The position numbers and the translations under genes are program-made. Below are positions 38,837 to 52,498 of a stretch of 64,000 nt of DNA, piece after piece. Below the pieces are notes generated by a model, which saw only the letters and a list, made by a program, of their open reading frames with translations, had not been told where the DNA came from and searched no databases. Source of the DNA: Patescibacteria group bacterium (lineage in GTDB: Bacteria > Patescibacteriota > JACPGU01); contig JBAYUK010000001.1 in the NCBI GenBank assembly GCA_041675145.1, positions 106,751-170,750 of the forward strand, written 5' to 3'. Positions within the stretch are counted from its first letter, which is position 1. The number at the start of each line of letters is the position of its first letter.

Positions 38837-40930
38837 CTAGTCTTCTTTCTTTGCACGAAGTCCAATAATAGTTTCGCGAATATTTCGTGGTACTTCAGCG
38901 TAGTGATGGAACTCCATCGTAGAGCTGGCACGACCCTGTGACATAGAACGAAGAGTGGTAGTGTAACCAAACATTTCAGCAAGTGGTACATACGCTTGTA
39001 CGAATTTCACTGAACCACGGTCACCCGTTTCCAAGATCTGACCACGCTTTGCATTCACATCTCCCATCACATCTCCTAAGAAGTCTTCAGGAGTAAGTAC
39101 TTCTACTTTCATAACTGGCTCAAGGATAGCAGGGTCTGCTTTCTTCACACCATCCTGGAAGGCCATTGAGCCGGCAATCTTAAATGCCATTTCAGATGAG
39201 TCAACATCGTGGTATGACCCGTCATATACCGCTACCTTCACATCAATAACTGGATAGCCGGCAATTACTCCACGAGTCATCGCTTCCTTTACACCCTTTT
39301 CAATTGCAGGGATGTATTCACGAGGAATAGCACCACCAACAATCTTGTTTTCAAAAACAAAGTTCTTAATTTCAGACTCAGGCTCGAGTGGAGAAATTTC
39401 CAACCAACAGTGTCCATACTGACCACGACCACCAGACTGGCGAACAAATTTTCCTTCCACCTTAACGCTCTTTTTAATCGCTTCTTTGTAGGCAACCTGT
39501 GGTTTACCAACATTTGCCTCCACTTTAAATTCACGCTTCATACGGTCTACGAGAATTTCCAAGTGAAGCTCTCCCATTCCTGAGATGATAGTCTCACCTG
39601 TTTCTTGATCTGAGTTAATCCTAAATGTTGGATCTTCTTCAGCAAGTTTAGAAAGTGCAATACCCATCTTTTCCTGGTCGGCCTTGGTCTTTGGCTCAAT
39701 AGCAACTGAGATCACTGGCTCTGGGAAGGTAATTTTTTCTAAGATAATTTGGTTGTTCTCATCACACAAGGTATCTCCCGTAAAGGTAGACTTGAGTCCT
39801 ACTGCTGCTGCAATCTCACCTGCGCCTACTTCAGATACTTCCTCGCGCTGTGCCGCATGCATACGAACAATACGTCCAATACGCTCACGCTCACCCTTGG
39901 TCGAGTTGTACACATAGCTACCAGCAGTCAGTTTTCCTGAATACACACGGAAGAAACAGAGTTTTCCAACAAATGGGTCGGTTGCAATCTTGAACGCAAG
40001 CGCTGCAAATGGACCTGACTCGTCAGCTGTTCTTGTAATATCTTCTTCAGTTTTAGGATCAGTACCGTGTACTGGTGGCTTATCGAGTGGAGATGGGAGA
40101 TATTCCATAATTGCATCAAGCAAGCACTCTACAATTACTCCACGGCCGTCTCCTCCCAGTACTGGAGAGAAGTCTCCTGATAGAGTTGCTTTACGGATAG
40201 CAGCCTTAATTTCTGCTACCGAAAGCTCCTCACCAGCTAGGTACTTGTTCATCATCGCCTCATCGTATTCAGAGACTTTTTCGATCAGCTCTGAACGATA
40301 CTTAGCAACTTTTTCTGCCATGTCTGCAGGAATTTCTCCTTCTACAAGCGCATGGTCAGTAAAGTCCTTGTAGGTATATGACTTCATAGCAACCAAGTCC
40401 ACTAAACCGTTGATTTCTTTTTCAAAACCAATTGGTAGTGCAATAGGAAACGCATTTTTGCGTAGACGCGCACGAATAGACTCGAGTGACTTGTAGAAGT
40501 CTCCACCCGTTTGGTTGATCTTGTTAATAAAACACAAACGAGGGACATTGTACTTGTCTGCTTGACGCCATACTGTTTCTGACTGAGGCTCTACACCCAT
40601 TTTTCCGTCAAAGATTACGGCAGCACCGTCAAGAACACGGAGTGAACGTTCTACCTCTACGGTAAAGTCTACGTGACCTGGGGTGTCGATAATGTTGTAC
40701 CGATGACCCTTCCAGAAACAGGTAGTAGCAGCTGAGGTAATAGTAATACCACGCTCCTGCTCCTGTTCCATCCAGTCCATGGTCGCCTGTCCTTCATGAA
40801 CGGCACCAATTTTGTGTTTCTTACCAGTTCGGTACAAGATCCCTTCGGTCACAGTTGTCTTACCCGCATCGATGTGGGCAATAGTTCCAAAGTTACGCAC
40901 TTTATCTAAAGGATAGTGTTCGTCTGCCAT
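38837..40930 (-). CDS. fusA: Elongation factor G
   Basis: 'AHIDAGKTT', 'DTPGHVDF' and 'NKMD'-like motifs. 697 aa. Confidence 0.97.
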
Positions 40931-40971
40931 AAAAATAAGTTAGATATATTGAAGTTATATAGTACTGGATC

Positions 40972-41002
40972 AGCAAAATAAAATACGCTCAAAGCGTTTG
41001 AG
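40972..41002 (-). terminator. Intrinsic terminator ending the surface-protein operon (CTCAAA-GCG-TTTGAG followed by U-rich on minus strand)
   Basis: Hairpin about 35 nt downstream of the 41041 stop. Confidence 0.55.
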
Positions 41003-41040
41003 AGTAATTATACTGGATTTATCTGGTTTTGCAAGGAGTA

Positions 41041-41706
41041 TTACAGATCCGACTCATCAAGAATATTATACTTTTGAGAAAGCTTTTTTCTTCTAGTTCC
41101 CTTAACTACTCGATACACTATGTCTGCAAGAATAATAAACACCAGAAACCCTATAATCCCTTTAACCCACGGCTCTTTATACCACTGATTCACAAGACCA
41201 CTACAACAAACTACTATCGGCGCCTGGGTAATAACATTCGCCTCAACCAAAGAAGCGAGACTAGTTCTTATTTGACTTCCTCCCTGAACAGTATTACTAG
41301 CTCTTGCCTGCTCAGTAAAGAAAACGCCAAAGTCATACTCACCTGAGGCAATCTTCTTGGGTGAGACACGGACGGTAACTGAAGCATCAGCGCCAGATGG
41401 AACGATAAAAGTAGAAGGTTCAACTGTTATAAACTGAGTAAGTTCATTAGTAACTTTCTTACCCCCTAGCTCAAATACTGCCTGTGTATCGTCTTTAATG
41501 AAGGCACGGATATCTACATCAATAGTACGAGGCTCATTTGCTCCATTAAAGTAGGTTACAACATGCTCTACCGTATCCCCTTCTTGAATATCCAGGTGCT
41601 TGGAAAGTGGAGATACCTGAAACTGTGCTGCACTTACGGGAAGAGCAACAAGCATCAGTATCGCTACAAAACTAACCCGAGCTAACGAAATTATTTTATT
41701 GAACAT
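41041..41706 (-). CDS. Small surface protein: signal peptide, ~150-aa beta-rich domain, C-terminal TM anchor and short basic cytoplasmic tail
   Basis: 'MFNKIISLARVSFVAILMLVALPVSAAQ' signal. C-terminal 'IIGFLVFIILADIVYRVV' TM followed by 'KGTRRKKL'. Confidence 0.6.
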   Translation of the reverse strand: MFNKIISLARVSFVAILMLVALPVSAAQFQVSPLSKHLDIQEGDTVEHVVTYFNGANEPRTIDVDIRAFIKDDTQAVFELGGKKVTNELTQFITVEPSTFIVPSGADASVTVRVSPKKIASGEYDFGVFFTEQARASNTVQGGSQIRTSLASLVEANVITQAPIVVCCSGLVNQWYKEPWVKGIIGFLVFIILADIVYRVVKGTRRKKLSQKYNILDESDL

Positions 41707-44700
41707 TTGGTACTATGGTAATAATAATGTTGTTTTTGTATTTACCGGCAGGCTGGCCTTTGCCTAATCCAACACGAACAAGTAAGTAGTCAGTAAATGA
41801 AGTTGGTTTTCCAGAGACACTGGGAATATGGGTTGCAATCGGTGCATCTTGTGTTGTAAAGGCTGCCCATTTTCTCACTCCTCCTAGAAAGAACCGATTT
41901 GGAATGCCACCTGAAACACTGGTACTGGTAGTTGAGTATCCCATAAACCCAGTACCCTTTGGTTCTACCCATGGAACAGGCGCGCCATTTGAGATAGGAG
42001 ACCCGGTGTTGCCATCAAAAGGAGGGATCACTTCCCCGTTATCATTCCGCAAGTCCCCGTCTTGCTTTACTGTGACAGTATACCCTTGCGCATTATCTGC
42101 AAATCCTTGGATCGCAAATGCTCCAGACTTATTGTCTTCCCATGAAACATTATCAAAAGAGATTCCGTCGGCTCGGGATGCGGCAGAGAGCACAATATCA
42201 GATAAGCTGGATACCGTATCCACAGTCAAAACTGGTTCGATAGTAAGAGACAGTGTTTCAGGAGGACCTATCAAAAACTGGGTACTATCAGAGAAAAGAT
42301 AGGGGCTTGTTACTCCATCCCCTATAGAAACAGTAACCGGCACAGTTCCTTGATTTACTAAAAGCTCTTCAGGTACTTGAGCAGTAAGCTCAGTCTCGGA
42401 AACAAACGTTGTGGGAATGTCTTTAACATTGAATTGTACCTTAGCTGTTGAGTTAAACTTAGAACCTTTGATACGCAATGTAAATTCTCCTCTATTTTTT
42501 GCACGTGAGTTAGGAGTAAGCTCTGTAATAACTGGGTTTGGACTAACGGGTGGAATTGTATTACCTCCCCCAGTTGATCCTGGGTTAACCGGTACAGCAC
42601 TAGTAACGGTTAGTGTCTTTATCGCAGAGAGTCCCCCGCCTGGCGTTGGATTAAAAACAGTAATGTTAACTGTACCAGCCGTTGAAATATCTGTATTGAG
42701 TACAGTAGCCGTTATCTGCCCTGAGTTGACAAAAGTAGTAGCACGATCAGAACCGTTAACACGAATCACTGAAGTCGGGAAGAAGTCACTCCCGTTGGCT
42801 GATAGTACAAAAGATGGATCTCCTTCGGTTTTAGTATCAGGCACTATCGTTGACAATGTCGGCACCGGCAGCGGATCAACTGTAAAAAAGGTGGCACCGG
42901 AGTCAGTTTGGGCAGCTTGCGAAACACTAGGATTCTTAACTCTCACACTCAACGATCCAGCACTCGTTATATCGCCAGATGTAATTGCTGCAGTTAGTTG
43001 AGTTGGACTCACATAGGTAGTGGTTTTTGCTACCCCATCCACATACACCACCGAACCTGAATCAAAATGGCGCCCATTGACGGTCAAGGTAAGTCCAGCT
43101 GATCCTGCATAGACATTAGTTGGTGAGATAGACGAAACCACTGTTTGCAACATGACAGAAAACTGTGTGTTATTTGAGTTGCTCGTAGCAAAATCCATAA
43201 CTCCATCATTATCAAAGTCAGCGGCGGTAATAGCTGAGACAGACAGCGTTGAAGGGTTCGTTGGATCAGGTCGATATATTGTTTGGTTATCTCCCTGGTA
43301 GTTTGATTCTACGACCGTATTGATTCCATCAGTTGAAAATATTCTTGAGCTTCCCCCAACTAAAACGTTACCGAGGTAGATTCTGTTAGCTGAGGTAGGA
43401 GCCAGGAACGGAAAAGTCGCGCTAAGACTAAAAGTACCGGATCCGCCATTGGCAAGATAATAGAGATTATTTGATCCCACTACTCCGATATGGCGAATTG
43501 AGCCTGCATTGAGCGTGGTAAGCGTATTGACTGAAGGTAAACTAACATTCGCATGGGTAGCGCTTAAAACGCCGGCTGTATTTGTAAATACTGAAACAGT
43601 ATTGTCTCCAATATTCGCTGTTGCAATACGATCCACTACCCCACTCGGGTTAATGTGTTTAAAGGCAATAACCGAACGAGGATTAGTACCTGCTCCAGTT
43701 GAGTATGTTGTAGTGGCGCCGTAGCTACCCGTGTTTATCCCGGTCTGGATAGTAACACCTACCTGGTTTGCAGTTTGGTGAACGGTAATAATATCCATAT
43801 CCGTATCACCGTCTATATCAACTATCTCGACATCACGAGTAACTGCCGGCACGCTAACCGTTGTTGGCCCTGTAAATACTCCGGTTCCATCGTTAAAAAA
43901 TAAATCTACTATACTGCTCGAAAAAACAAGAGCTACATCTTGATCCCCATCAATATCTATATCAGCCAGCTTGATGGCAATCGGATTGAGATGCCCACCA
44001 GTAGAGTAGGCAGTACCAGTAGCCGGAAATGTTCCGTCACCGTTATTAAGCGATACACCAAAACCGTGAGTAGTAGCAGACATATTGGTTACAATATCCG
44101 GAAAAGCGTCCCCGTTGAGGTTACCTGAGACTATAAGCTGTGAGAAAAATGTTGCTGCTGGAGCATAATTTTGTGAAGTATAGGTTTTTTCAGATGGGAC
44201 TACTACAGAGAAGTTGATCAAAGAAGACAGGCCACCACCAGGTGATGGGTTGAATATAGTTACCGGTACTGTTGCGGCCGAGGTAAAGTCTGTTGATGGA
44301 ATAGTAGCAGATAATGACGTACTACTGCCAAAAGTAGTAGTCCGATCTGATCCATTCCAGCGCAACACTGAGCTACTAATAAAGTCTAGCCCAGTAACGC
44401 TTAGAGTCAGCGCTGCTGCGCCAACATTCTCAAATCCTGGACTCAGCGTAGAAAGAGTCGGAGTGGTCACCCCAAACTGAGACAGGTTTGGCCGGGAAGA
44501 TCCACCGACTGCTGTGTATGATCCACCAATGTAGACTACACTCCCCTGAAGAGAGCTAGAGAATACGGTTCCTGTTATATTTGGATCCCAAGTAGTTACT
44601 AGCGCAGTACTAGTACTGAGCGCTGCTAAATTAGTGCGTGCTCCTCCGCCAATAGTTGCAAAAGTACCGCCCACATAGAGCGTTGTGGTACCATCTGGCG

Positions 44701-46642
44701 TAATGGTATTAATGGTAGCACTTGGTGAAGCTGCATCCCAAACATTAGCAGTACCAGTAGCAATAGATAGACTGGCTATACCTTTTCGTGCTCCTCCGCC
44801 AATAGTAGTGAATGCTCCTCCGGCATAGATCACACCACCATTCTCAAGTAGAGCATTTACCTGTCCGTTCGCGTTCGGATCCCAGGCGGTAGCCAGTCCT
44901 GTTGCTGGAGAAATTGCGGCAATGTTGTTACGAGTCGAACCTGCTGCAGTTCCAAATGAACCACCGATGTATACATCCGTACCATCTGCGACCAGGGCGT
45001 ATACAAATCCTACTACTCCAGGATCCCACGCCGTAACCGATTCAGTTCCTGTATCTATCGCTCCAAGATGAGCACGGGAAGACGCTCCCAATAAGGTAAA
45101 CTGTCCTCCAATATATAAATTAGTACCATTAAGAGCAAAGGCTTTGACTACTGCGTTTGGTGCAATATTTAATGTTGTTGCACTACCAGTAGTAGTATCG
45201 AGCGCTACAAGGTTAGTACGCGACTGACCTCCAATTGTTCCTGTAAATGTTCCACCAGTATAGAGTGTTGAACCAGACAATAGTAAAGCATTGACTGTCA
45301 TGGAGGTAGATCCTGCAGGGTTCCATGAGGAAATCGTTCCGTCACTCCCAATTTTGGCCAACCCTTTTCTATTTTTTCCGCCAATAGAGGTGAAGTTTCC
45401 TCCGAAGTAGACATTCGTAGCGTCAACTGCTACTACAATTGCCCCACCACCAATTCCAGTGTTAGGGTCAAAGGAAGTAGCCAGGCCAGTTGCAGTGTCG
45501 ATAGCGGCGGCAAGTTGCCTCGACTGGCCACCTATGGTCGTGAAACCTCCCGCCACATATACCATACTACCGCTGAGTTCAAGTCCAAACACTACGCCGT
45601 TCGCGTTCGGATCCCAGGCGGTAGCGTTCAGTGTATTAGTTGTTGTATCGAGTGCTGCAATGTTATTACGAGCTGACCCTCCAATAGAAGTGAATAATCC
45701 TCCCGCATACAGCGTTGTACCGGAAAGTCGAATCTCGTATACCGTACCATTTGAACCAGGGTTCCAGGCAGTTGCCAATCCTGTTGTAGTGTCGAGCGCC
45801 GCAATCCGGTTGCGAGACTGACCACCAATGGTCGTGAAGTTACCTGAAGCGTAGAGCGTAGTACCAGAAAGAGCAAGTGAATCGAGGTTTGAGTTTGCAT
45901 TCGGGTCAAAAGCGGTAGCAAGTCCTGTTGTCGTATCAATTGCTGCTATTCTGTTACGAGAGGTAACGCCAACTGTTGTAAAAAAACCACCTACATACAA
46001 AGTATTGGCACCATCAAAAACAATGGAAAGTACACGGTTATCTAGATTGGGGTTCCAAGAAGTTGCAACACCAGTAGTGAGGTTAAGCGCAGCTAAATTG
46101 TTACGAGTCTGACCCCCTATAGTACTGAAATTTCCTCCTACATACAGTACGCCGTTTGCCACTACTAGTTCTTCAATGTATGAGTTAGCATTACCATCAA
46201 AAGTAGGGTCAAGCGTACCGTCAGACAAGATGTGGGCAATATGATTACGGGTAGTAGTCCCAACCAGAGTAAAATCACCACCTATGTAGTATCCACCAGA
46301 TCCATCCAGACCTACCGCACGCACCACACCGTTGGGAACTGCGTTACCAGATGGGACACTTGCTGTTGTCTTGTTTACCACTGCTCCGTATCCTGTATAT
46401 GGTCCAACATAGGTGAAGTTTCCACCAATATATACTGATCCATCTCCTGCTGTCTGTATAGCATTCACATCACCATCTGTAATCGGAAAGCTCGAAACGG
46501 CAGCTGAAGAAGGAGCCGCATACGTCTCCCCGACCCGAGTCCCAAAGGTAAAGAAACATGAACTGAGAATAAGCGCACTAATACTCACACCAGAAAAGAG
46601 GCGTTGAAGTATGGTCGTCTTTTGTTTTAGGTAATCCTGCAT
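41696..46642 (-). CDS. Giant secreted/cell-surface protein (1648 aa): ~14-16 tandem ~47-aa beta-propeller-type repeats, IPT/TIG-like Ig domains, FG-GAP/VCBS-like Asp-rich repeats, unassigned ~230-aa C-terminal domain
   Basis: Signal peptide, then the repeat consensus 'SRNxIAALDTTTGxATAWNPNANGxVxAL..GxTLYxGGxFTxIGG'. 'DIDGDTDMD' and 'FDNDGVMDF' are FG-GAP-like. Several 'LTVNG..F..SVV..NG...TT..S...' IPT-like segments. Confidence 0.8.
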   Translation of the reverse strand: MQDYLKQKTTILQRLFSGVSISALILSSCFFTFGTRVGETYAAPSSAAVSSFPITDGDVNAIQTAGDGSVYIGGNFTYVGPYTGYGAVVNKTTASVPSGNAVPNGVVRAVGLDGSGGYYIGGDFTLVGTTTRNHIAHILSDGTLDPTFDGNANSYIEELVVANGVLYVGGNFSTIGGQTRNNLAALNLTTGVATSWNPNLDNRVLSIVFDGANTLYVGGFFTTVGVTSRNRIAAIDTTTGLATAFDPNANSNLDSLALSGTTLYASGNFTTIGGQSRNRIAALDTTTGLATAWNPGSNGTVYEIRLSGTTLYAGGLFTSIGGSARNNIAALDTTTNTLNATAWDPNANGVVFGLELSGSMVYVAGGFTTIGGQSRQLAAAIDTATGLATSFDPNTGIGGGAIVVAVDATNVYFGGNFTSIGGKNRKGLAKIGSDGTISSWNPAGSTSMTVNALLLSGSTLYTGGTFTGTIGGQSRTNLVALDTTTGSATTLNIAPNAVVKAFALNGTNLYIGGQFTLLGASSRAHLGAIDTGTESVTAWDPGVVGFVYALVADGTDVYIGGSFGTAAGSTRNNIAAISPATGLATAWDPNANGQVNALLENGGVIYAGGAFTTIGGGARKGIASLSIATGTANVWDAASPSATINTITPDGTTTLYVGGTFATIGGGARTNLAALSTSTALVTTWDPNITGTVFSSSLQGSVVYIGGSYTAVGGSSRPNLSQFGVTTPTLSTLSPGFENVGAAALTLSVTGLDFISSSVLRWNGSDRTTTFGSSTSLSATIPSTDFTSAATVPVTIFNPSPGGGLSSLINFSVVVPSEKTYTSQNYAPAATFFSQLIVSGNLNGDAFPDIVTNMSATTHGFGVSLNNGDGTFPATGTAYSTGGHLNPIAIKLADIDIDGDQDVALVFSSSIVDLFFNDGTGVFTGPTTVSVPAVTRDVEIVDIDGDTDMDIITVHQTANQVGVTIQTGINTGSYGATTTYSTGAGTNPRSVIAFKHINPSGVVDRIATANIGDNTVSVFTNTAGVLSATHANVSLPSVNTLTTLNAGSIRHIGVVGSNNLYYLANGGSGTFSLSATFPFLAPTSANRIYLGNVLVGGSSRIFSTDGINTVVESNYQGDNQTIYRPDPTNPSTLSVSAITAADFDNDGVMDFATSNSNNTQFSVMLQTVVSSISPTNVYAGSAGLTLTVNGRHFDSGSVVYVDGVAKTTTYVSPTQLTAAITSGDITSAGSLSVRVKNPSVSQAAQTDSGATFFTVDPLPVPTLSTIVPDTKTEGDPSFVLSANGSDFFPTSVIRVNGSDRATTFVNSGQITATVLNTDISTAGTVNITVFNPTPGGGLSAIKTLTVTSAVPVNPGSTGGGNTIPPVSPNPVITELTPNSRAKNRGEFTLRIKGSKFNSTAKVQFNVKDIPTTFVSETELTAQVPEELLVNQGTVPVTVSIGDGVTSPYLFSDSTQFLIGPPETLSLTIEPVLTVDTVSSLSDIVLSAASRADGISFDNVSWEDNKSGAFAIQGFADNAQGYTVTVKQDGDLRNDNGEVIPPFDGNTGSPISNGAPVPWVEPKGTGFMGYSTTSTSVSGGIPNRFFLGGVRKWAAFTTQDAPIATHIPSVSGKPTSFTDYLLVRVGLGKGQPAGKYKNNIIITIVPNVQ

Positions 46643-46712
46643 GTAAACATAGTTATACAGGATTTAGTATACGGTATTTTCTAGAAGAAAAGTGTGGATA
46701 AATAAAAAGAAT

Positions 46713-46733
46713 GGAGACGCATTTAGCGTCTCC
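46713..46733 (-). terminator. Stem-loop GGAGACGC-ATTTA-GCGTCTCC after the protease gene (partial terminator or processing site)
   Basis: 8-bp perfect stem with T-rich sequence downstream on the minus strand. Confidence 0.5.
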
Positions 46734-46757
46734 ACATTCAAAGTATCGTTGAGAAAG

Positions 46758-47528
46758 TTATTTATGGGGCATTTCAGGCAACGGATGCCTGAGATTGGCC
46801 AAGTAAACAAGAAAACTTGTCGACTTTGTTTTGGTCTCTGCTCCATTTTTTTGTTGGTAGTTAAACCCCTGCTCCGTTGTTCCTGATAACAAGAGAAGAT
46901 TGTCGTCGCTACTGCGAAACGGGGTTCCTGAGTCACCAGGCTTAGAAGGCGGAACAATGTCACACATGAAGAATTGCCGTTCCTCATTGGTACCAACTAC
47001 ACCTACAACAAACCGAGCCTGGCCGAAGCACTGTCCAGAACGCTTACCGTCCAGGGATTTGACGACAATGGGATCAATTCCTTGCACGTCACCCACGGCA
47101 TTCATGGTGCCCTCATCACCTAAAGGTTGTATTGGAGCACTTCCGGAAGTCAGTGGCGCATCTGTTCCGGGCTTACCCGGTGCAAGAATGACCACGTCCC
47201 CCCCCAAGTACATAGTTGCAACCAACGGGTAAATCCCAGACTCATCATGGATTTTGTAGTGACCGACAAAGTCCTTTTGAAACCAGTGCCCAACCGTAAA
47301 AAACGCAGACCGTCCTTCCATATTGGATAACCGTACGCCTGGAGCAGACATCTTCGCTTCCAGGTTTTCGATAACCATTGCTTTGGCTTCCACCTGGATC
47401 GGTGGCAGCTCTGGTTTCTTTGCAAGAGCATGTTGCTTTGCGACGGGGGTTGTAGTAGGTTTACAGCCCATAACGCCTGAGGCGAGGAGAAGAAAGGCAA
47501 GAGTGTGCGCTTTCATGTGAGTCACCAT
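46758..47528 (-). CDS. Secreted trypsin-like (S1 family) serine protease, probable lipoprotein or signal peptide
   Basis: 'GDSGTPF' catalytic Ser motif. N-terminal 'LLLASGVMGC'. Confidence 0.7.
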   Translation of the reverse strand: MVTHMKAHTLAFLLLASGVMGCKPTTTPVAKQHALAKKPELPPIQVEAKAMVIENLEAKMSAPGVRLSNMEGRSAFFTVGHWFQKDFVGHYKIHDESGIYPLVATMYLGGDVVILAPGKPGTDAPLTSGSAPIQPLGDEGTMNAVGDVQGIDPIVVKSLDGKRSGQCFGQARFVVGVVGTNEERQFFMCDIVPPSKPGDSGTPFRSSDDNLLLLSGTTEQGFNYQQKNGAETKTKSTSFLVYLANLRHPLPEMPHK

Positions 47529-47547
47529 CCTTTTTTGAACTAAATAT

Positions 47548-47575
47548 ATTATATATATTTATTCACTTTTGTCAA
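47548..47575 (-). promoter_or_regulatory. Consensus sigma70 promoter TTGACA-16 nt-TATAAT (minus strand) for the protease-adhesin operon
   Basis: Both hexamers are perfect consensus. Confidence 0.7.
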
Positions 47576-47606
47576 TACATTGGTAAATAGATGCAATTAT
47601 TACACT

Positions 47607-47636
47607 AAAAAACCCGGATTATCTCCGGGCTTTTTA
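47607..47636. terminator. Bidirectional terminator CCCGGA-TTATC-TCCGGG with A5/T5 flanks, after rpsG
   Basis: Seen directly, 20 nt after the rpsG stop. Confidence 0.8.
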
Positions 47637-47657
47637 GTGAGTACTTTTCTTATAGCT

Positions 47658-48134
47658 TTAGTATCGTGCAAAGTGTGCGTATGCGCGGTTACTTTCTGCC
47701 ATACGGTGTGTATCTTCTTTCTTCTTAACCGCTGCACCTTGTGCTTCAGAGGCTAACATAAGCTCTTCAGCAAGCTCCTCTGCAGTTGAACGGCCTTTCT
47801 TAGCCCGCACAGCAGCAATCACCCACTTCATAGCAAACATAAGCTTCTGGTCTTTTTTAACTTCCATAGGAACCTGGTAGTTTGCTCCACCAACACGGCG
47901 AGATTTTACCTTCACCGAAGGAGAAACATTCTTCATTGCAGCACTAAACACATCCAGTCCCTTTTTTCCTGTCTTTTTTTCAATGATATCGAATGCATCG
48001 TACACGATACGAGATGCAACTGACTTTTTTCCATCCCACATTAAGTGGTTCACAAACTTTGCCAAAATCAAAGAATTATGGATTGGATCCGGAGCAAGTT
48101 TATGTTTAGCGATCAGGCTTTTTCCTCGTGACAT
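47658..48134 (-). CDS. rpsG: 30S ribosomal protein S7
   Basis: 'MSRGKSLIAKHKLAPDPIHNS' is a uS7 N-terminus. Confidence 0.95.
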   Translation of the reverse strand: MSRGKSLIAKHKLAPDPIHNSLILAKFVNHLMWDGKKSVASRIVYDAFDIIEKKTGKKGLDVFSAAMKNVSPSVKVKSRRVGGANYQVPMEVKKDQKLMFAMKWVIAAVRAKKGRSTAEELAEELMLASEAQGAAVKKKEDTHRMAESNRAYAHFARY

Positions 48135-48151
48135 ATCAAGTAGTAGTTAGG

Positions 48152-48583
48152 TTATTTTTTAGCAGCTGCGCCCGCTTTTTTCGCACCGTAGCGAGAACGA
48201 CCTTGTTTGCGCTTATCTACACCACCAGCGTCGAGCATTCCTCGAACAATGTGGTAACGAACTCCTGGAAGGTCCTTTACACGACCACCACGGATCACTA
48301 CCACTGAGTGTTCCTGGAGGTTATGCCCAATACCCGGGATGTAGGCGGTTACTTCCATACCATTCGTTAAACGAACACGAGCGATTTTTCGAAGCGCTGA
48401 GTTCGGTTTCTTTGGTGTCATGGTAGTAACCTTGGTACATACTCCCCTCTTAAACGGAGCTCCCTTTGGGCTATCGGTAACCTTGTTTTTAATCGAATTG
48501 AAATTCTTCAGCAGGGCTGGAGATTTACTTTTCTGAGTAATTTTCTTGCGTCCCTTACGGACAAGCTGGTTAATAGTTGGCAC
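48152..48583 (-). CDS. rpsL: 30S ribosomal protein S12
   Basis: '[13 protein letters not shown]' and '[10 protein letters not shown]'. Confidence 0.97.
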
Positions 48584-48652: not shown

Positions 48653-51600
48653 CTAGAGGACTTTACGAAAACCGGTTCCAGCAGGAATAAGTTTTCCAAG
48701 GATAGTGTTTTCTTTGAGCCCCCTCAAGTAGTCAACCTTGCCCTGAGTTGCAGCATCGATCAACACTGCGGTTGTCTCTTGGAATGAAGCTGCTGACAAG
48801 AATGATTCAGTATTAAGCGCTGCTTTAGTAATACCAAGGAGCAATTCCTCTGCCTCAATCGGTTTCTTTGAGTTCTTGTTGTGCGCCTCAATAACTGAAC
48901 GAGAAACAATCTCACCTTCAAGGTACTCACTGTCTCCTTGGGCAACAATTCTCATCTTACTAAACATCTGGCGGATAATAAGCTCAAGATGCTTGTCGTT
49001 AATAAACTGCGCTTGAGACTCGTAAATACTCTGAATCTCACGAGCAATATACTGCTTGACCGCAAATGTTCCTTTAATATCCATCAATTCATGCAGATCG
49101 ATATGTCCTTCAGTGATCTGGTCACCCTTTTCAATACGAGCACCATCTTCGAGCATGAGGTCCATACCTGGATCAATTGCGTAGCTCTTCTCGTCTTTGT
49201 GAGTATAGGTCACAGTTACGGTACCAGCCTTTTCGTTAACTTCAACACTACCCTTACCGTGAGAACGCATGGTCTTTTGCTTACCGAGGTCGATCAAGGC
49301 CTGACCGTCTTCTACCTTGTCCTTGTCTTTTACAAGAACTTTAGCGCCCTTTTTCACGACGAAAATCTCACGCTTGTTGTCTTCCGAGGTAATAACAACT
49401 GTCTTTTTATCATGGCTGTTTTCTATTACAGCAACCTTACCGGTAAGTTCAGAGATGAGAGCCAGACCCTTTGGAGAACGAGCTTCGAAGAGCTCTTCTA
49501 CACGAGGAAGTCCTTGGATGATGTCGCGCTTTGCAATACCACCCGAGTGGAAGGTACGCATGGTAAGCTGGGTTCCCGGCTCTCCGATAGACTGTGCAGC
49601 TACAATTCCGGCTGCCTCACCGATAGCCACCAAGTGACCACGAGCAAGGTCTCGTCCGTAACACATCTGACAAATTCCCCACGCCGCTTCACATTCAAGT
49701 ACGGTACGAACATGGACAACATCTACTTCTGGATTTTCAATAAGAGTAACAATAATTTCACGAGTGAGTTCAGTGCCGGCAGCAACCAGTACTTTTCCTT
49801 TCTTGGTTATAATGTCTTGGGCAAGCATTCGGCCATCGATATGGCGAGTAAACTCATTTTCAATATCATGTGCCGTGCTCTTCGCAAACGAAATACTCTT
49901 TGCTGTTTTACAGTCATCTTCTGCTACGATCATATCCTGACAGACATCTACCAAACGACGAGTAAGGTACCCTGAGTCAGAGGTACGAAGCGCAGTGTCG
50001 GCAAGACCCTTTCTCGCTCCGTGAGACGAGATAAAGTACTCAAGAACTGAGAGTCCTTCTTTGAAGTTAGATTTAACTGGAAGATCAAGAGTCTGACCTG
50101 TTGGACCAGCCATCAAACCACGCATGGCAACCAACTGGGTAATAAGGTCTTTGTCTCCACGCGCTTTAGAGGTAAACATCATGTGGAGTGGGTTGTTCGC
50201 GGTAAATGTCTGCATCATCTCTGACTCGATCTTAGCTTTAGTAGCAGACCATAACTGAATAGTCTTCATCGATTTCTCGGCTTCAGTAATAAGTCCGAGT
50301 TTGTACTGTGCATCAATTTCGTTATAGAGCTCCTCGGCATCATGAATACGACCCTGCTTGGTTGCTGCAATCTTGAGGTCATCGATAGAAAGAGTTACTC
50401 CAGAAAGAGTTGCCGCCTTCATACCAATATTTTTAATGTCGTCTACAAACACTGCAGTGCGCTCAATACCGAGCTCCTTAAATGAACGAGCAATAATAGC
50501 CTCGAGCTTACCCTTTACCATCGTATCGTTTACCATTCCAAATTCAGGTGGCAAGATTTGGTTAAACATTAAGCGACCAATAGTAGTCTCTATCACGTCT
50601 TCCCCGATCTTAACCTTAATTGGCTCGCGCAACTTAATTTGATTCAAGTCATAGGCTGAATGCGCTTCATTTTCATTTCCAAATGCACGAATCTTATTAC
50701 CTTCAAAATCAATATCAATCATGGTGAGGTAGTAACATCCCAATACCATGTCTTTAGATGGGGCAACAGACGGCGCACCATCTGAAGGCTTGAGCAAGTT
50801 ACGACTTGCTACCATCGTCTCACGAGCCTCAGCTTGCGCTGGTGCTGAAAGTGGTACGTGGATTGCCATCTGGTCACCATCGAAGTCAGCGTTAAACGGC
50901 GCACACACAAGAGGGTGGATACGAATCGCTTTTCCTTCAATAAGTTTTACTTTAAATGCCTGGATACCAAGACGGTGAAGAGTTGGCGCACGGTTTAGTA
51001 AGACATAGTGTTTACTAGTTACTTCTTCCAAAATATCCCATACTTCCGGAATACCCGCGTCGATCAACTTACCGGCAGACTTAGCACTATGAGTAAACCC
51101 ACGAGCGATAAGACCTGAGATAATAAATGGCTTAAAGAGTTCTAGTGCCATGGTCTTTGGAATACCACATTCATCCAGCTTCAGGTCTGGTCCTACTACA
51201 ATTACTGAACGACCAGAGTAGTCTACACGCTTACCAAGCAAGTTCTGACGGAATCGTCCCTGCTTACCTTTGAGTGCCTCAGAAAGAGACTTGAGTTTCT
51301 TTTTATTCGCTGCAGCAGCACCCTTACCGCGCTGTGAGTCAGTACCGATCAACGCGTCAACTGCTTCCTGTAACATACGCTTTTCATTGCGCTGAATGAC
51401 CTCAGGAGCACGAAGTTCCTGAAGGCGCTTCAAGCGATTGTTACGGTTAATAACACGACGGTAGAGGTCGTTAATATCGCTCGTTGCAAAACGACCACCA
51501 TCTAATTGCACCATTGGGCGTAAATCGGGTGGAATAACTGCAATATGTGTCCAAATCATCCACGCAGGATCAAGACTAGCTTTTACTAAGCCATGCACAA

Positions 51601-52498
51601 AACGAAGACGCTTCATGACTTTCTTTTTCTTTTGTCCTGCTGACTTTTCCTTCTCTTCTTCGAGTTCTTTTTTGAGTGTAGTAATATCGATCTCACGAAT
51701 AAGATCATAAATTGCTTCTGCTCCAATATTGGCCTTAAAGAAGTCACCGTACTTGCGACGCAAATCAGCGTATTTTCCTTCTGAAAGAATCGCGTATTTC
51801 GCAAGCTTCGAGATATCATCTCGAGCTTCCTCGTATACCGTTTCTACTTCATTCTTCTTTGCCTCTACACTCTTTTCATAGGCTTTGAGCTCGTCTTGAA
51901 GTTTTTTAACTAATGTTTTCTTCTCGGCTGTTTCCATCTTGTCATCAGCCATGGCCTTATCCAGCGCCTTCTTGTGGGTATCCCCTTCTTTTGCGAGCGC
52001 TTTTTTGAATTCTTCAACTTCAGCTTTCAGTTTCGCGAGAATCTGTTGCTTCTCCTTCTCCTTTACATCAGTGACCACAAAGCTGGCAAAGTACACAACC
52101 TTTTCAAGGTCACGAACAGAAATACCAAGATACATACCAATTCGGCTTGGTACGCCACGCAAATACCACACATGCGCAACTGGTGCAGCAAGCTTGATAT
52201 GACCCATGCGTTCACGACGAACAATAGAGCGAGTTACTTGCACTCCACATTTATCACAGATAATTCCCTTGTAACGAACTTTCTTGTATTTACCACAGTA
52301 ACACTCGAAGTCTCGAGTAGGTCCAAAGATTCTTTCACAAAACAAACCATCGCGCTCAGGCTTCTGAGTACGATAGTTAATAGTTTCAGGTTTTGTCACT
52401 TCACCATGAGACCACTGTAATATGTGTTCTGGGGAAGCAAGCGATACTTTGATGGCGTCGAAGTGGGTCACTCTCTCGCCGAATTGTTCTTTCATCAT
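48653..52498 (-). CDS. rpoC: DNA-directed RNA polymerase subunit beta'
   Basis: Zn finger 'CYCGKYKKVRYKGIICDKCGV' and the catalytic 'NADFDGDQM'. Confidence 0.97.
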   Translation of the reverse strand: MMKEQFGERVTHFDAIKVSLASPEHILQWSHGEVTKPETINYRTQKPERDGLFCERIFGPTRDFECYCGKYKKVRYKGIICDKCGVQVTRSIVRRERMGHIKLAAPVAHVWYLRGVPSRIGMYLGISVRDLEKVVYFASFVVTDVKEKEKQQILAKLKAEVEEFKKALAKEGDTHKKALDKAMADDKMETAEKKTLVKKLQDELKAYEKSVEAKKNEVETVYEEARDDISKLAKYAILSEGKYADLRRKYGDFFKANIGAEAIYDLIREIDITTLKKELEEEKEKSAGQKKKKVMKRLRFVHGLVKASLDPAWMIWTHIAVIPPDLRPMVQLDGGRFATSDINDLYRRVINRNNRLKRLQELRAPEVIQRNEKRMLQEAVDALIGTDSQRGKGAAAANKKKLKSLSEALKGKQGRFRQNLLGKRVDYSGRSVIVVGPDLKLDECGIPKTMALELFKPFIISGLIARGFTHSAKSAGKLIDAGIPEVWDILEEVTSKHYVLLNRAPTLHRLGIQAFKVKLIEGKAIRIHPLVCAPFNADFDGDQMAIHVPLSAPAQAEARETMVASRNLLKPSDGAPSVAPSKDMVLGCYYLTMIDIDFEGNKIRAFGNENEAHSAYDLNQIKLREPIKVKIGEDVIETTIGRLMFNQILPPEFGMVNDTMVKGKLEAIIARSFKELGIERTAVFVDDIKNIGMKAATLSGVTLSIDDLKIAATKQGRIHDAEELYNEIDAQYKLGLITEAEKSMKTIQLWSATKAKIESEMMQTFTANNPLHMMFTSKARGDKDLITQLVAMRGLMAGPTGQTLDLPVKSNFKEGLSVLEYFISSHGARKGLADTALRTSDSGYLTRRLVDVCQDMIVAEDDCKTAKSISFAKSTAHDIENEFTRHIDGRMLAQDIITKKGKVLVAAGTELTREIIVTLIENPEVDVVHVRTVLECEAAWGICQMCYGRDLARGHLVAIGEAAGIVAAQSIGEPGTQLTMRTFHSGGIAKRDIIQGLPRVEELFEARSPKGLALISELTGKVAVIENSHDKKTVVITSEDNKREIFVVKKGAKVLVKDKDKVEDGQALIDLGKQKTMRSHGKGSVEVNEKAGTVTVTYTHKDEKSYAIDPGMDLMLEDGARIEKGDQITEGHIDLHELMDIKGTFAVKQYIAREIQSIYESQAQFINDKHLELIIRQMFSKMRIVAQGDSEYLEGEIVSRSVIEAHNKNSKKPIEAEELLLGITKAALNTESFLSAASFQETTAVLIDAATQGKVDYLRGLKENTILGKLIPAGTGFRKVL

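What the first reader, a model, noticed from the sequence alone, without database searches (positions are those of the whole stretch)
41696..46642. Internal architecture of the 1648-aa protein: about 15 tandem ~47-aa repeats, then Ig-like and Asp-rich calcium-type repeats
Residues ~60-760 carry regularly spaced repeats with the consensus '...SRNxIAALDTTTGxATxWNPN.NG.V.AL...G.TLY.GG.FT.IGG...' at ~45-48 aa periodicity. This is enough for two 7-bladed propellers. Next comes an IPT/TIG-like domain. Then a block with FG-GAP/VCBS-type Asp loops (DIDGDTDMD, DIDIDGDQD, FDNDGVMDF) occurs. Three more IPT-like domains follow ('LTVNG.HFDSGSVVYVDG', 'VIRVNGSDRATTF', 'LRIKGSKFNSTAKVQF'). The C-terminal region is unassigned. 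On the DNA, the repeat periodicity shows as recurring 'cca..ggttgcgagactgacc'-like strings on the plus strand. The tandem propeller followed by Ig stalks resembles adhesin/receptor ectodomains.
Basis: seen in the sequence. Interest (0 to 1): 0.5.

Follow-up and report, generated by a model that had tools for sequence, protein, structure and literature searches.

The report
Giant adhesin with pilin-type anchor domain

Summary

The unassigned C-terminal ~175 aa belongs to a CPR family found only at the extreme C-terminus of proteins of 121-3739 aa. Many members match NCBIfam CPR_Pam_pilin_C, all below its cut-off. The confident model resembles chaperone-usher pilin domains, weakly.

The downstream 221-aa gene overlaps the giant's stop by 11 nt. 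It encodes a signal peptide, one Ig-like domain and a C-terminal TM helix. It is homologous to two-domain TM-anchored proteins that follow other giant tail-bearing proteins, and this family matches the solved Enterococcus WxL-interacting protein.

Best reading: a host- or surface-binding adhesin held at the cell surface by beta-strand complementation, either by its partner or on a Pam-type pilus. The architecture and homologies are shown here. The strand-insertion mechanism is inferred. I rate it a new variant of a known kind.

The parts
46517..46642 (-). Residues 1-42. N-terminal positively charged stretch plus a hydrophobic helix, read as a Sec signal peptide or signal anchor, with a possible cleavage site at ETYA/AP.
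   Evidence: Sequence. The AF2 model has a helix at residues 11-32 followed by a disordered stretch at 30-41. The same leader is conserved in relative P0072.
44438..46477 (-). Residues 56-735. Fourteen DUF5122 ('delta-60') beta-propeller blades of 48-50 aa, best read as two 7-bladed propellers split at about residue 396/397.
44159..44437 (-). Residues 736-828. CoaZ_rpt_PGGG domain 1, a TIG/IPT-like Ig domain ending in 'NPSPGGGLS'.
   Evidence: Four NF058597 stretches. Self-alignment gives 27-45% identity among the four copies. The AF2 model is all-beta here but only at pLDDT 60-70.
43133..44158 (-). Residues 829-1170. FG-GAP/VCBS-type propeller block. Five blades are detectable and there is room for seven. 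Four blades carry Asp-rich loops (NLNGDAFPD, DIDIDGDQD, DIDGDTDMD, DFDNDGVMD).
   Evidence: Pfam FG-GAP_3 and FG-GAP both pass their cut-offs. A blade profile built from P0021/P0030 finds blades at 837, 886, 938, 1006 and 1136.
42605..43132 (-). Residues 1171-1346. CoaZ_rpt_PGGG domains 2 and 3.
   Evidence: (best stretch 1259-1346, covering model positions 1-88 of 88).
42278..42535 (-). Residues 1370-1455. CoaZ_rpt_PGGG domain 4, which follows a Pro/Gly-rich linker at residues 1347-1369.
   Evidence: and Pfam TIG_SUH over 1370-1431 at E 1.5e-5.
42221..42259 (-). Residues 1462-1474, 'ETLSLTIEPVLTV'. A conserved strand of alternating hydrophobic residues just before the C-terminal domain. It is the candidate linker (donor) strand of Pam-type pilins. 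This assignment is inferred.
   Evidence: An equivalent 'L.F.V.G' strand is conserved at this position across the family (alignment A2). The linker-strand concept comes from the Pam preprint.
41699..42220 (-). Residues 1475-1648. C-terminal domain (CTD), a distant relative of the Pam pilin C-terminal truncated-Ig domain. In this family it always lies at the extreme C-terminus.
41041..41706 (-). Partner gene, 221 aa. It encodes a signal peptide, one Ig-like domain and a C-terminal TM helix. Its ATG overlaps the giant gene's end by 11 nt. It is homologous to domain 1 plus the TM helix of the WxLIP/PamC-D-like membrane-anchored proteins.

Best explanation
The gene encodes a Sec-exported cell-surface adhesin of a Patescibacteria (CPR) bacterium.

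Binding head and stalk. The head is two 7-bladed DUF5122 propellers plus an FG-GAP propeller, spaced by four CoaZ/TIG-like Ig domains.

Attachment module. The last ~175 residues are a pilin-type, incomplete Ig domain of the CPR Pam-pilus superfamily, preceded by a conserved linker strand. I propose that this domain is completed by a beta-strand donated in trans. The most likely donor is the translationally coupled downstream 221-aa protein, a single-domain, membrane-anchored WxLIP/PamC-D-like protein. That protein would either tether the adhesin directly to the cytoplasmic membrane or chaperone it until it is handed, by donor-strand exchange, onto a Pam-type pilus encoded elsewhere in the genome.

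What is shown here:
- the domain architecture;
- the homology of the CTD family to Pam pilin C-terminal domains;
- the homology of the partner to WxLIP-type proteins;
- the recurrence of the gene pair in other CPR loci.

What is inferred:
- that a strand is actually inserted;
- who donates it;
- what the propellers bind.
For: Architecture.

CTD family:
- An exhaustive phmmer search with residues 1450-1648 found 52 cluster representatives at E<=1e-3. In the 50 I aligned, the match runs to the last residue, in proteins of 121-3739 aa.
- The members that carry a source name are from CPR/Patescibacteria.
- 23 of 34 aligned members hit NF058581 CPR_Pam_pilin_C, and 3 hit PamT. The NF058581 matches inspected span model positions 2-148 of 148 and lie at the C-terminus.
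- The subgroup containing the window's CTD aligns to the rest with hhalign probability 100% and E 6e-41.
- The AF2 model of the CTD has pLDDT 92.6.
- The Pam preprint describes pilins as an N-terminal domain, a linker donor strand and a truncated-Ig C-terminal domain, with PapD-like chaperones that carry a C-terminal TM helix.

Partner:
- It has a signal peptide and a C-terminal hydrophobic helix, and overlaps the giant's stop by 11 nt.
- The same pair, with the same 11-nt overlap, occurs in relative L003 at 31% identity, E 2e-34.
- Giant CTD-bearing proteins in L012, L014 and L015 are likewise followed at once by signal + Ig + TM proteins.
- A profile built from those four long proteins alone picks the window partner out of 346 window ORFs at E 4e-15. 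hhalign gives 86% probability against the L012 pair.
- The family profile hits solved EfmWxLIP1 (9i25_C, 9i1y_A) at E 1.9e-7. One member scores 26.2 bits on Pfam WxLIP_PGBD.
Against: - The window's own CTD does not hit NF058581 even at E<=10. All family hits to that model are below its 55-bit cut-off, at 19.5-44 bits.
- I could not inspect coordinates, so an open groove in the CTD is not demonstrated.
- No other CTD-bearing protein (pilin) lies in the 64-kb window.
- Five other large CTD proteins (L004, L005, L007, L008, L013) have no such partner next to them.
- The N-terminal hydrophobic helix might itself be an uncleaved anchor.
- No complex prediction or experiment was available.
Confidence: 0.55

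Rival explanations
1. Tip or distal adhesin of a true Pam-type pilus. The giant protein is incorporated into a filament made of pilins encoded elsewhere in the genome. The 221-aa protein acts only as its dedicated membrane-anchored chaperone and is not the final anchor.
For: In L012 a giant CTD protein of at least 2103 aa is the first gene of an operon. It is followed by a TM-anchored chaperone-like protein, two 354/358-aa Pam-like pilins and a second chaperone-like protein. The conserved linker strand upstream of the CTD would let the giant donate a strand as well as accept one. The Pam model of membrane-anchored chaperones fits this reading.
Against: No pilin-sized CTD protein lies within the 64-kb window or near the equivalent pairs in L003, L014 or L015. 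The rest of the genome could not be searched. A 1450-residue N-terminal region is very different from the compact pilin N-terminal domain that stabilises Pam filaments.
Confidence: 0.25
2. An ordinary multi-domain secreted or surface protein. The C-terminal domain is just one more Ig-like module, perhaps binding cell wall or carbohydrate, and adjacency to the 221-aa gene has no mechanistic meaning.
Against: The domain sits strictly at the C-terminus in all 50 aligned family members, whatever lies N-terminal to it. There is transitive, full-length homology to the Pam pilin C model. The downstream WxLIP-like TM protein recurs in five independent loci, with a start/stop overlap in three.
Confidence: 0.15
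3. The repeat region is a compositional or assembly artefact, or the ORF is not a real gene.
For: The protein is rich in T, G and S (36% together) and comes from a metagenome-assembled genome.
Against: The identical protein was called on independent assemblies from ENA, Logan and NCBI. There are thousands of homologues with conserved blade positions. The AF2 models are confident. There is no DNA-level tandem repeat that could collapse or expand in assembly.
Confidence: 0.02

Closest known systems
Pam pili of CPR bacteria (PamA/PamB pilins, PamT tip, PamC/PamD membrane-anchored chaperones, PamR anchor; Troman et al., bioRxiv 10.64898/2026.03.03.709456)
   Same: Same bacterial group (CPR). There is a C-terminal truncated-Ig-type domain at the very end of the protein, preceded by a conserved strand. 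A signal-peptide protein with Ig fold(s) and a C-terminal TM helix is encoded next to it. Family members reach the NCBIfam Pam pilin C model over its full length, and the CTD fold resembles chaperone-usher pilins.
   Different: The window's own CTD does not reach NF058581 at all, and its family stays below the cut-off. In place of a compact nine-strand N-terminal domain there are about 1450 residues of propellers and Ig domains. No pilins are nearby. The partner has one domain, where PamC/D are described as having two. The preprint does not describe giant adhesins carrying the pilin domain.
[quoted passage not shown]
   Same: Same logic: a large adhesin whose C-terminal beta-sandwich is predicted to be completed by a strand from an adjacent-gene protein that ends in a TM helix. 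The partner family is homologous to EfmWxLIP1 domain 1 at E 1.9e-7, and one member nearly reaches Pfam WxLIP_PGBD.
   Different: No WxL domain or dual W-x-L motif is detectable in the CTD. Pfam finds none in the window's CTD at E<=10 or in 10 family members at E<=0.1. A profile search of the PDB found nothing. The window partner lacks the DUF3324-like second domain. The organism is a CPR bacterium, not a Firmicute.
Two-domain tip adhesins of chaperone-usher pili (FimH, PapG, CupB6, LpfD)
   Same: An N-terminal binding module plus a C-terminal pilin domain with an incomplete Ig fold that is completed by a donor strand. These pilin domains are among the best structural matches to the CTD.
   Different: No usher or outer membrane is involved, and the chaperone-like partner is membrane-anchored. 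Sequence similarity is undetectable. The binding module is more than ten times larger.
DUF5122 / 'delta-60 repeat' propeller surface proteins (e.g. T9SS-sorted proteins of Bacteroidota; P0030 and P0021 share the order DUF5122 propeller, TIG, FG-GAP)
   Same: The same propeller repeats at 35-49% identity over about 40% of the query. P0030 covers 82% of the query with the same domain order.
   Different: Those proteins end in T9SS or other sorting domains. This one ends in the CPR pilin-type domain.

Membership tests
DUF5122 (PF17164) beta-propeller repeat proteins | Score above the Pfam gathering threshold, with tandem repeats of about 48 aa forming propeller blades | tested here: met
CoaZ_rpt_PGGG (NCBIfam NF058597) | Score above the curated cut-off of 30 bits | tested here: met
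   294.9 bits over 4 stretches. The four copies share 27-45% identity.
FG-GAP repeat proteins (PF13517 / PF01839) | Score above the gathering thresholds | tested here: met
   FG-GAP_3 scores 46.2 against 26.9, and FG-GAP 26.9 against 22.1.
FG-GAP repeat proteins (PF13517 / PF01839) | Seven blades forming a propeller, with Ca2+-binding Asp loops | tested here: inconclusive
   Five blades are detected and the spacing leaves room for two degenerate ones. This region was not modelled, and metal binding cannot be tested in silico here.
Pam pilus pilin, C-terminal domain (NCBIfam NF058581 CPR_Pam_pilin_C) | Score at or above the curated cut-off of 55 bits | tested here: not met
   The window's CTD gives no hit even at E<=10. 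Its relatives score 19.5-44 bits.
Pam pilus pilin, C-terminal domain (NCBIfam NF058581 CPR_Pam_pilin_C) | Homology to the domain, placement at the extreme C-terminus, restriction to CPR | tested here: met
   The homology is transitive. The window's CTD reaches P0136, P0151 and P0132 at E 4e-9 to 9e-6, and these reach NF058581 over its full length at E 2e-11 to 2e-5. hhalign between the two subgroups gives 100% probability. The tail after the domain is 0 residues in all 50 aligned members. Source names are CPR/Patescibacteria.
Pam pilus pilin, C-terminal domain (NCBIfam NF058581 CPR_Pam_pilin_C) | Truncated Ig fold that accepts a donor (linker) strand from a neighbouring subunit | tested here: inconclusive
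Pam pilus system (operon level) | Pilins, tip protein, chaperones and anchor encoded together | tested here: not met
   In the 64-kb window, only the giant and one chaperone-like gene are present, and there is no other CTD carrier. A fuller operon of that kind is seen in L012.
WxLIP (DUF916/PF06030 + DUF3324 + TM helix) | PGBD (DUF916) domain homology plus a C-terminal TM helix | tested here: met
   At family level, profile A7 hits EfmWxLIP1 residues 35-160 at E 1.9e-7. The window partner is tied to that family at E 4e-15. It has a C-terminal hydrophobic helix. On its own, however, the window protein has no Pfam hit to PF06030.
WxLIP (DUF916/PF06030 + DUF3324 + TM helix) | A second (DUF3324/HBD) domain | tested here: not met
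   The alignment shows that the window and L003 proteins lack the roughly 100-aa second domain present in the longer homologues.
WxL domain proteins (PF13731) | C-terminal WxL domain with a dual W-x-L motif | tested here: not met
   Pfam finds no WxL hit in the window's CTD at E<=10 or in 10 family members at E<=0.1. The conserved Trp residues lie in 'P.PW' and 'kWA' contexts, not in W-x-L.

The most novel reading that the evidence does not exclude
The CPR Pam pilus system and the Firmicute WxL/WxLIP clusters may be two branches of one ancient strand-complementation surface-display system of single-membrane bacteria. On that reading, this locus would be its minimal form: a one-domain, membrane-anchored WxLIP-like protein that captures the incomplete C-terminal Ig domain of a 1648-residue adhesin and so displays it without any filament. 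The same C-terminal 'plug' would then serve as a general sorting and anchoring tag for very diverse giant CPR surface proteins (LamG, GH-like, cohesin-context and propeller proteins of up to 3739 aa).
Probability: 0.3. Interest if true: 0.7.

Novelty: new variant of a known kind. Interest (0 to 1): 0.55.

Why it matters
CPR/Patescibacteria are mostly obligate episymbionts, and how they grip their hosts is largely unknown. The Pam pilus was described only in 2026, and the preprint names no adhesin for it.

If giant multi-domain binders carry a Pam-type pilin domain and come with a dedicated membrane-anchored WxLIP-like partner, three things follow:
- It gives a concrete and testable candidate for the host-contact molecule.
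- It gives a way to list candidate strand-anchored surface proteins in CPR genomes: search for the C-terminal domain.
- It gives an evolutionary bridge between Pam pili and the WxL adhesion clusters of enterococci and lactobacilli.

The propeller, Ig and FG-GAP architecture itself is ordinary for bacterial adhesins.

Tried and rejected
- DNA-level repeats.
- Word-indexed homologue searches. The search with the CTD found nothing, not even the protein itself. The search with the partner found only itself.
- Sequence searches of the PDB. The whole protein and the CTD profile both gave no hit.
- Pfam and NCBIfam on the CTD, the partner and the upstream 256-aa gene. Nothing significant was found.
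- GTDB genome scans with the partner alignment and the CTD alignment gave no confirmed loci, and one alignment was too diverse to use.
- Metagenome scans. The partner scan found nothing. The CTD scan gave 4 loci, none with a partner homologue.
I used the last job on the propeller region instead, so the partner's fold rests on sequence profiles only.
- WxL-domain identity of the CTD. I considered it from the start and rejected it at sequence level.
- The small genes downstream of the giants in L005 and L007 have no signal peptide or TM segment and are unrelated to the partner.
- The upstream 256-aa lipoprotein-like gene. I considered it as part of the module and rejected it: it has its own promoter and terminator and is replaced by a PAP2 gene in L003.
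Full report
**1. The observation**

The ORF at 41696-46642 on the minus strand is real and encodes 1648 aa. The identical protein has been called on independent ENA, Logan and NCBI assemblies. In NCBI it is MFA7308617.1, 'MAG: FG-GAP-like repeat-containing protein [Patescibacteria group bacterium]'.

Over residues 40-790 the BLOSUM62 autocorrelation peaks sharply at lag 48, with a score of 0.717. The best value over 200 shuffles was -0.30. Harmonics appear at lags 97/98, 146 and 194.

Anchoring on 'Y.GG.F' gives 14 units at residues 71-704, spaced 48-50 aa, with 38% mean pairwise identity. The count is 14 rather than about 15, and the period is 48-50 aa.

The DNA-level remark does not hold. 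The quoted 16-mer occurs once exactly and once with three mismatches in the repeat region, and TRF sees no tandem array. The blades are anciently diverged, not recently amplified.

**2. Domain architecture**

Pfam gives the following:
- DUF5122 beta-propeller repeat, E 2e-20
- Rax2 propeller
- FG-GAP_3, 46 bits
- FG-GAP
- TIG_SUH over residues 1370-1431

NCBIfam gives four copies of NF058597 CoaZ_rpt_PGGG, 'choice-of-anchor Z repeating domain', at E 9e-90. By self-alignment these lie at about residues 736-828, 1171-1258, 1259-1346 and 1370-1455.

Among the 120 best homologues, blade counts peak at 13-14, and runs of about 6-7, 13-14, 17-21 and 28 recur. This is the pattern expected for modules of seven with one blade often missed. 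Two 7-bladed propellers is therefore the best-supported reading.

In the FG-GAP block (residues 829-1170), a blade profile built from P0021/P0030 detects blades at 837, 886, 938, 1006 and 1136. The spacing leaves room for two degenerate blades. Four blades keep Asp-rich loops. Calcium binding remains an inference.

No chain in the PDB is detectably similar by sequence to any part of the protein.

**3. The C-terminal domain**

An exhaustive HMMER search of 1.84 billion cluster representatives with residues 1450-1648 returned 52 proteins at E<=1e-3. In the 50 I aligned, the match ends at the last residue, while protein length ranges from 121 to 3739 aa. Those with a source name are CPR/Patescibacteria.

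The nearest relative, P0072 (1122 aa), has the same leader peptide, a DUF5122 propeller, two CoaZ domains and the same tail at 49% identity.

The consensus of the trimmed alignment A2 is:

'L.F.V.G ... FG ... L.V.TN..GY.V ... I..F.GTN..P..W..P...G.FGY.T.D..L..G.A.RF...WA.F.T...EV ... Q.AG.Y.N...Y'

Scanning A2 against NCBIfam, 23 of 34 members match NF058581 'CPR_Pam_pilin_C, Pam pilus system pilin subunit' (best E 2e-12), and 3 match NF058579 PamT. The NF058581 matches inspected cover the whole 148-position model at the C-terminus, but all are below the 55-bit cut-off, at 19.5-44 bits. The window's own domain does not match by itself.

The window-like subgroup and the remaining members align with hhalign probability 100% and E 6e-41 over 170 columns. 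The domain is thus a divergent sister of the Pam pilin C-terminal domain. It is not a member by NCBI's threshold.

**4. What is known about Pam pili**

A 2026 preprint (10.64898/2026.03.03.709456) solved two filaments of the CPR bacterium Ca. Mycosynbacter amalyticus. It reports the following:
- PamT is a C-terminal domain alone and sits at the tip.
- PamC and PamD are PapD-like chaperones with a C-terminal TM helix.
- PamR, with a free N-terminal strand and a TM helix, is proposed to anchor the filament.

The preprint does not mention adhesins, WxL or DUF916.

In the window protein, a conserved strand of alternating hydrophobic residues ('ETLSLTIEPVLTV', residues 1462-1474) sits where the family has 'L.F.V.G'. 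It is the candidate linker strand.

**5. The downstream gene**

ORF 41041-41706 (-) overlaps the giant's last codons by 11 nt. It encodes a 221-aa protein with a signal peptide, about 150 residues of beta-rich sequence beginning 'AQFQVSPL', and a C-terminal hydrophobic helix followed by basic residues. Gene callers chose a shorter 204-aa start that truncates the signal peptide.

Direct Pfam, NCBIfam and PDB searches give only marginal Ig-like hits.

The relative P0072 is followed by a 209-aa homologue (31% identity, E 2e-34) with the same 11-nt overlap.

Looking at other CTD carriers:
- In L012, a giant of at least 2103 aa overlaps by 1 nt a 332-aa signal+Ig+Ig+TM protein. Two 354/358-aa Pam-like pilins and a second 317-aa TM-anchored protein follow.
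- In L014 and L015, giants of 2228 and 2051 aa are followed within 4-20 nt by 345/337-aa proteins of the same kind.

The alignment of all six proteins shows that the window and L003 proteins are the first domain plus the TM helix, and lack exactly the second domain.

Three tests tie the window partner to this family:
- A profile built from the four long proteins alone retrieves it from 346 window ORFs at E 4e-15, with the next best at 0.19.
- hhalign against the L012 pair gives 86% probability.
- The family profile hits the solved Enterococcus faecium WxL-interacting protein EfmWxLIP1 (PDB 9i25_C, 9i1y_A) at E 1.9e-7 over its first (DUF916/PGBD) domain. L012's second copy scores 26.2 bits on Pfam WxLIP_PGBD against a cut-off of 27.3.

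In Firmicutes, WxL clusters pair a large adhesin that ends in a WxL domain with WxLIP, which consists of DUF916, DUF3324 and a TM helix. AlphaFold2 predicts that a WxLIP strand completes the WxL beta-sandwich (PMC10599100).

**6. Mechanism proposed**

Shown here:
- A Sec-type leader, a large binding ectodomain and a pilin-superfamily C-terminal domain.
- A translationally coupled, membrane-anchored WxLIP/PamC-D-like partner.
- Recurrence of this gene pair in five independent loci.

Inferred:
- The C-terminal domain is an incomplete Ig fold, completed in trans by a beta-strand.
- The partner supplies that strand. It would act either as the final membrane tether, giving a 'one-subunit pilus' analogous to WxL/WxLIP, or as a chaperone that passes the adhesin to a Pam-type filament.

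I favour the first option slightly for this locus. No pilin-type gene lies in the 64-kb window or beside the equivalent pairs in L003, L014 and L015. L012, however, shows that the second arrangement also exists. What the propellers bind is unknown. A host or prey envelope component is the natural guess for an episymbiont.

**7. Weaknesses**

- The link to Pam pilins is transitive and sub-threshold.
- I could not see the groove, model the partner or predict a complex.
- Five other large CTD proteins have no adjacent partner.
- The rest of this genome was not available to search.

**8. Genomic context**

All genes in the region lie on the minus strand, in this order:
- rpoC, 48653-52498
- rpsL
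- rpsG, 47658-48134
- a 256-aa lipoprotein-like gene, 46758-47528
- the giant gene
- its partner
- fusA, 38837-40930

The lipoprotein-like gene has a 12/12 sigma-70 consensus promoter and a strong terminator of its own. The giant and its partner therefore probably form a separate bicistronic unit, inserted in the str operon. In L003 the pair also lies directly upstream of fusA.

**9. Verdict**

The propeller, Ig and FG-GAP ectodomain is ordinary. The interesting part is the previously unassigned tail and its partner. Together they make this protein a new variant of the recently described CPR Pam system, a giant adhesin carrying the pilin domain. They also tie that system to the WxL/WxLIP clusters of Firmicutes.

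Noticed in passing
L012:5643-6641, L012:9129-10082, L014:11692-12729, L015:11176-12189 (with window 41041-41706): The membrane-anchored 'chaperone-like' proteins encoded next to CPR Pam-type pilin-domain proteins are homologues of the Firmicute WxL-interacting protein. The family profile hits PDB EfmWxLIP1 at E 1.9e-7, and one member scores 26.2 bits on Pfam WxLIP_PGBD against a cut-off of 27.3. This suggests that Pam pili and WxL clusters are evolutionarily related. The Pam preprint does not mention it.
   Followed up: partly
window 38837-48583: Three non-ribosomal genes (a 256-aa lipoprotein-like gene, the giant adhesin and its partner) are inserted between rpsG and fusA of the str operon. 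In relative L003 the adhesin/partner pair also lies immediately upstream of fusA, but with a PAP2 gene upstream of it.
   Followed up: partly
window 46711-46735 and 47548-47575 (minus strand): The 256-aa gene (46758-47528) has a lipobox-like 'VMGC' signal and no family hit. It is preceded by a perfect 12/12 TTGACA-16-TATAAT promoter match and followed by a 10-bp-stem, T-tailed terminator just upstream of the giant gene.
   Followed up: no
P0121 (286 aa); P0122/L008 (3490 aa); P0131/L005 (1673 aa); P0137/L013 (3739 aa, preceded by a 6053-aa protein with a weakly CTD-like end): The same C-terminal domain is attached to very different N-terminal regions. Examples are a single CoaZ domain (pilin-sized), LamG/DUF2341 arrays, Fn3 arrays, and glycosidase-like domains with F5/8 type C domains. 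This looks like a general CPR surface-display tag. Many of these genes sit alone among housekeeping genes.
   Followed up: partly
L014:12719-14344 and L015:12164-13828: A second, longer (541/554 aa) protein follows the WxLIP-like gene in both loci. It has a signal peptide, a similar N-terminal 'I.P..FE' strand, several hydrophobic segments and a LytR_C domain. It hits the partner profile only weakly (E 0.089).
   Followed up: no
window 41041-41706 versus L001:7988-8602: Public gene calls start the partner at an internal Met (204 aa), which cuts its signal peptide. The 221-aa start, which overlaps the giant's stop by 11 nt, restores a canonical signal peptide and matches the L003 arrangement.
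   Followed up: yes
window 33-2504 (+): An 823-aa protein on the opposite strand has an N-terminal PG_binding_1 domain (E 5e-15) and is otherwise unassigned. It may be another envelope or surface protein.
   Followed up: no
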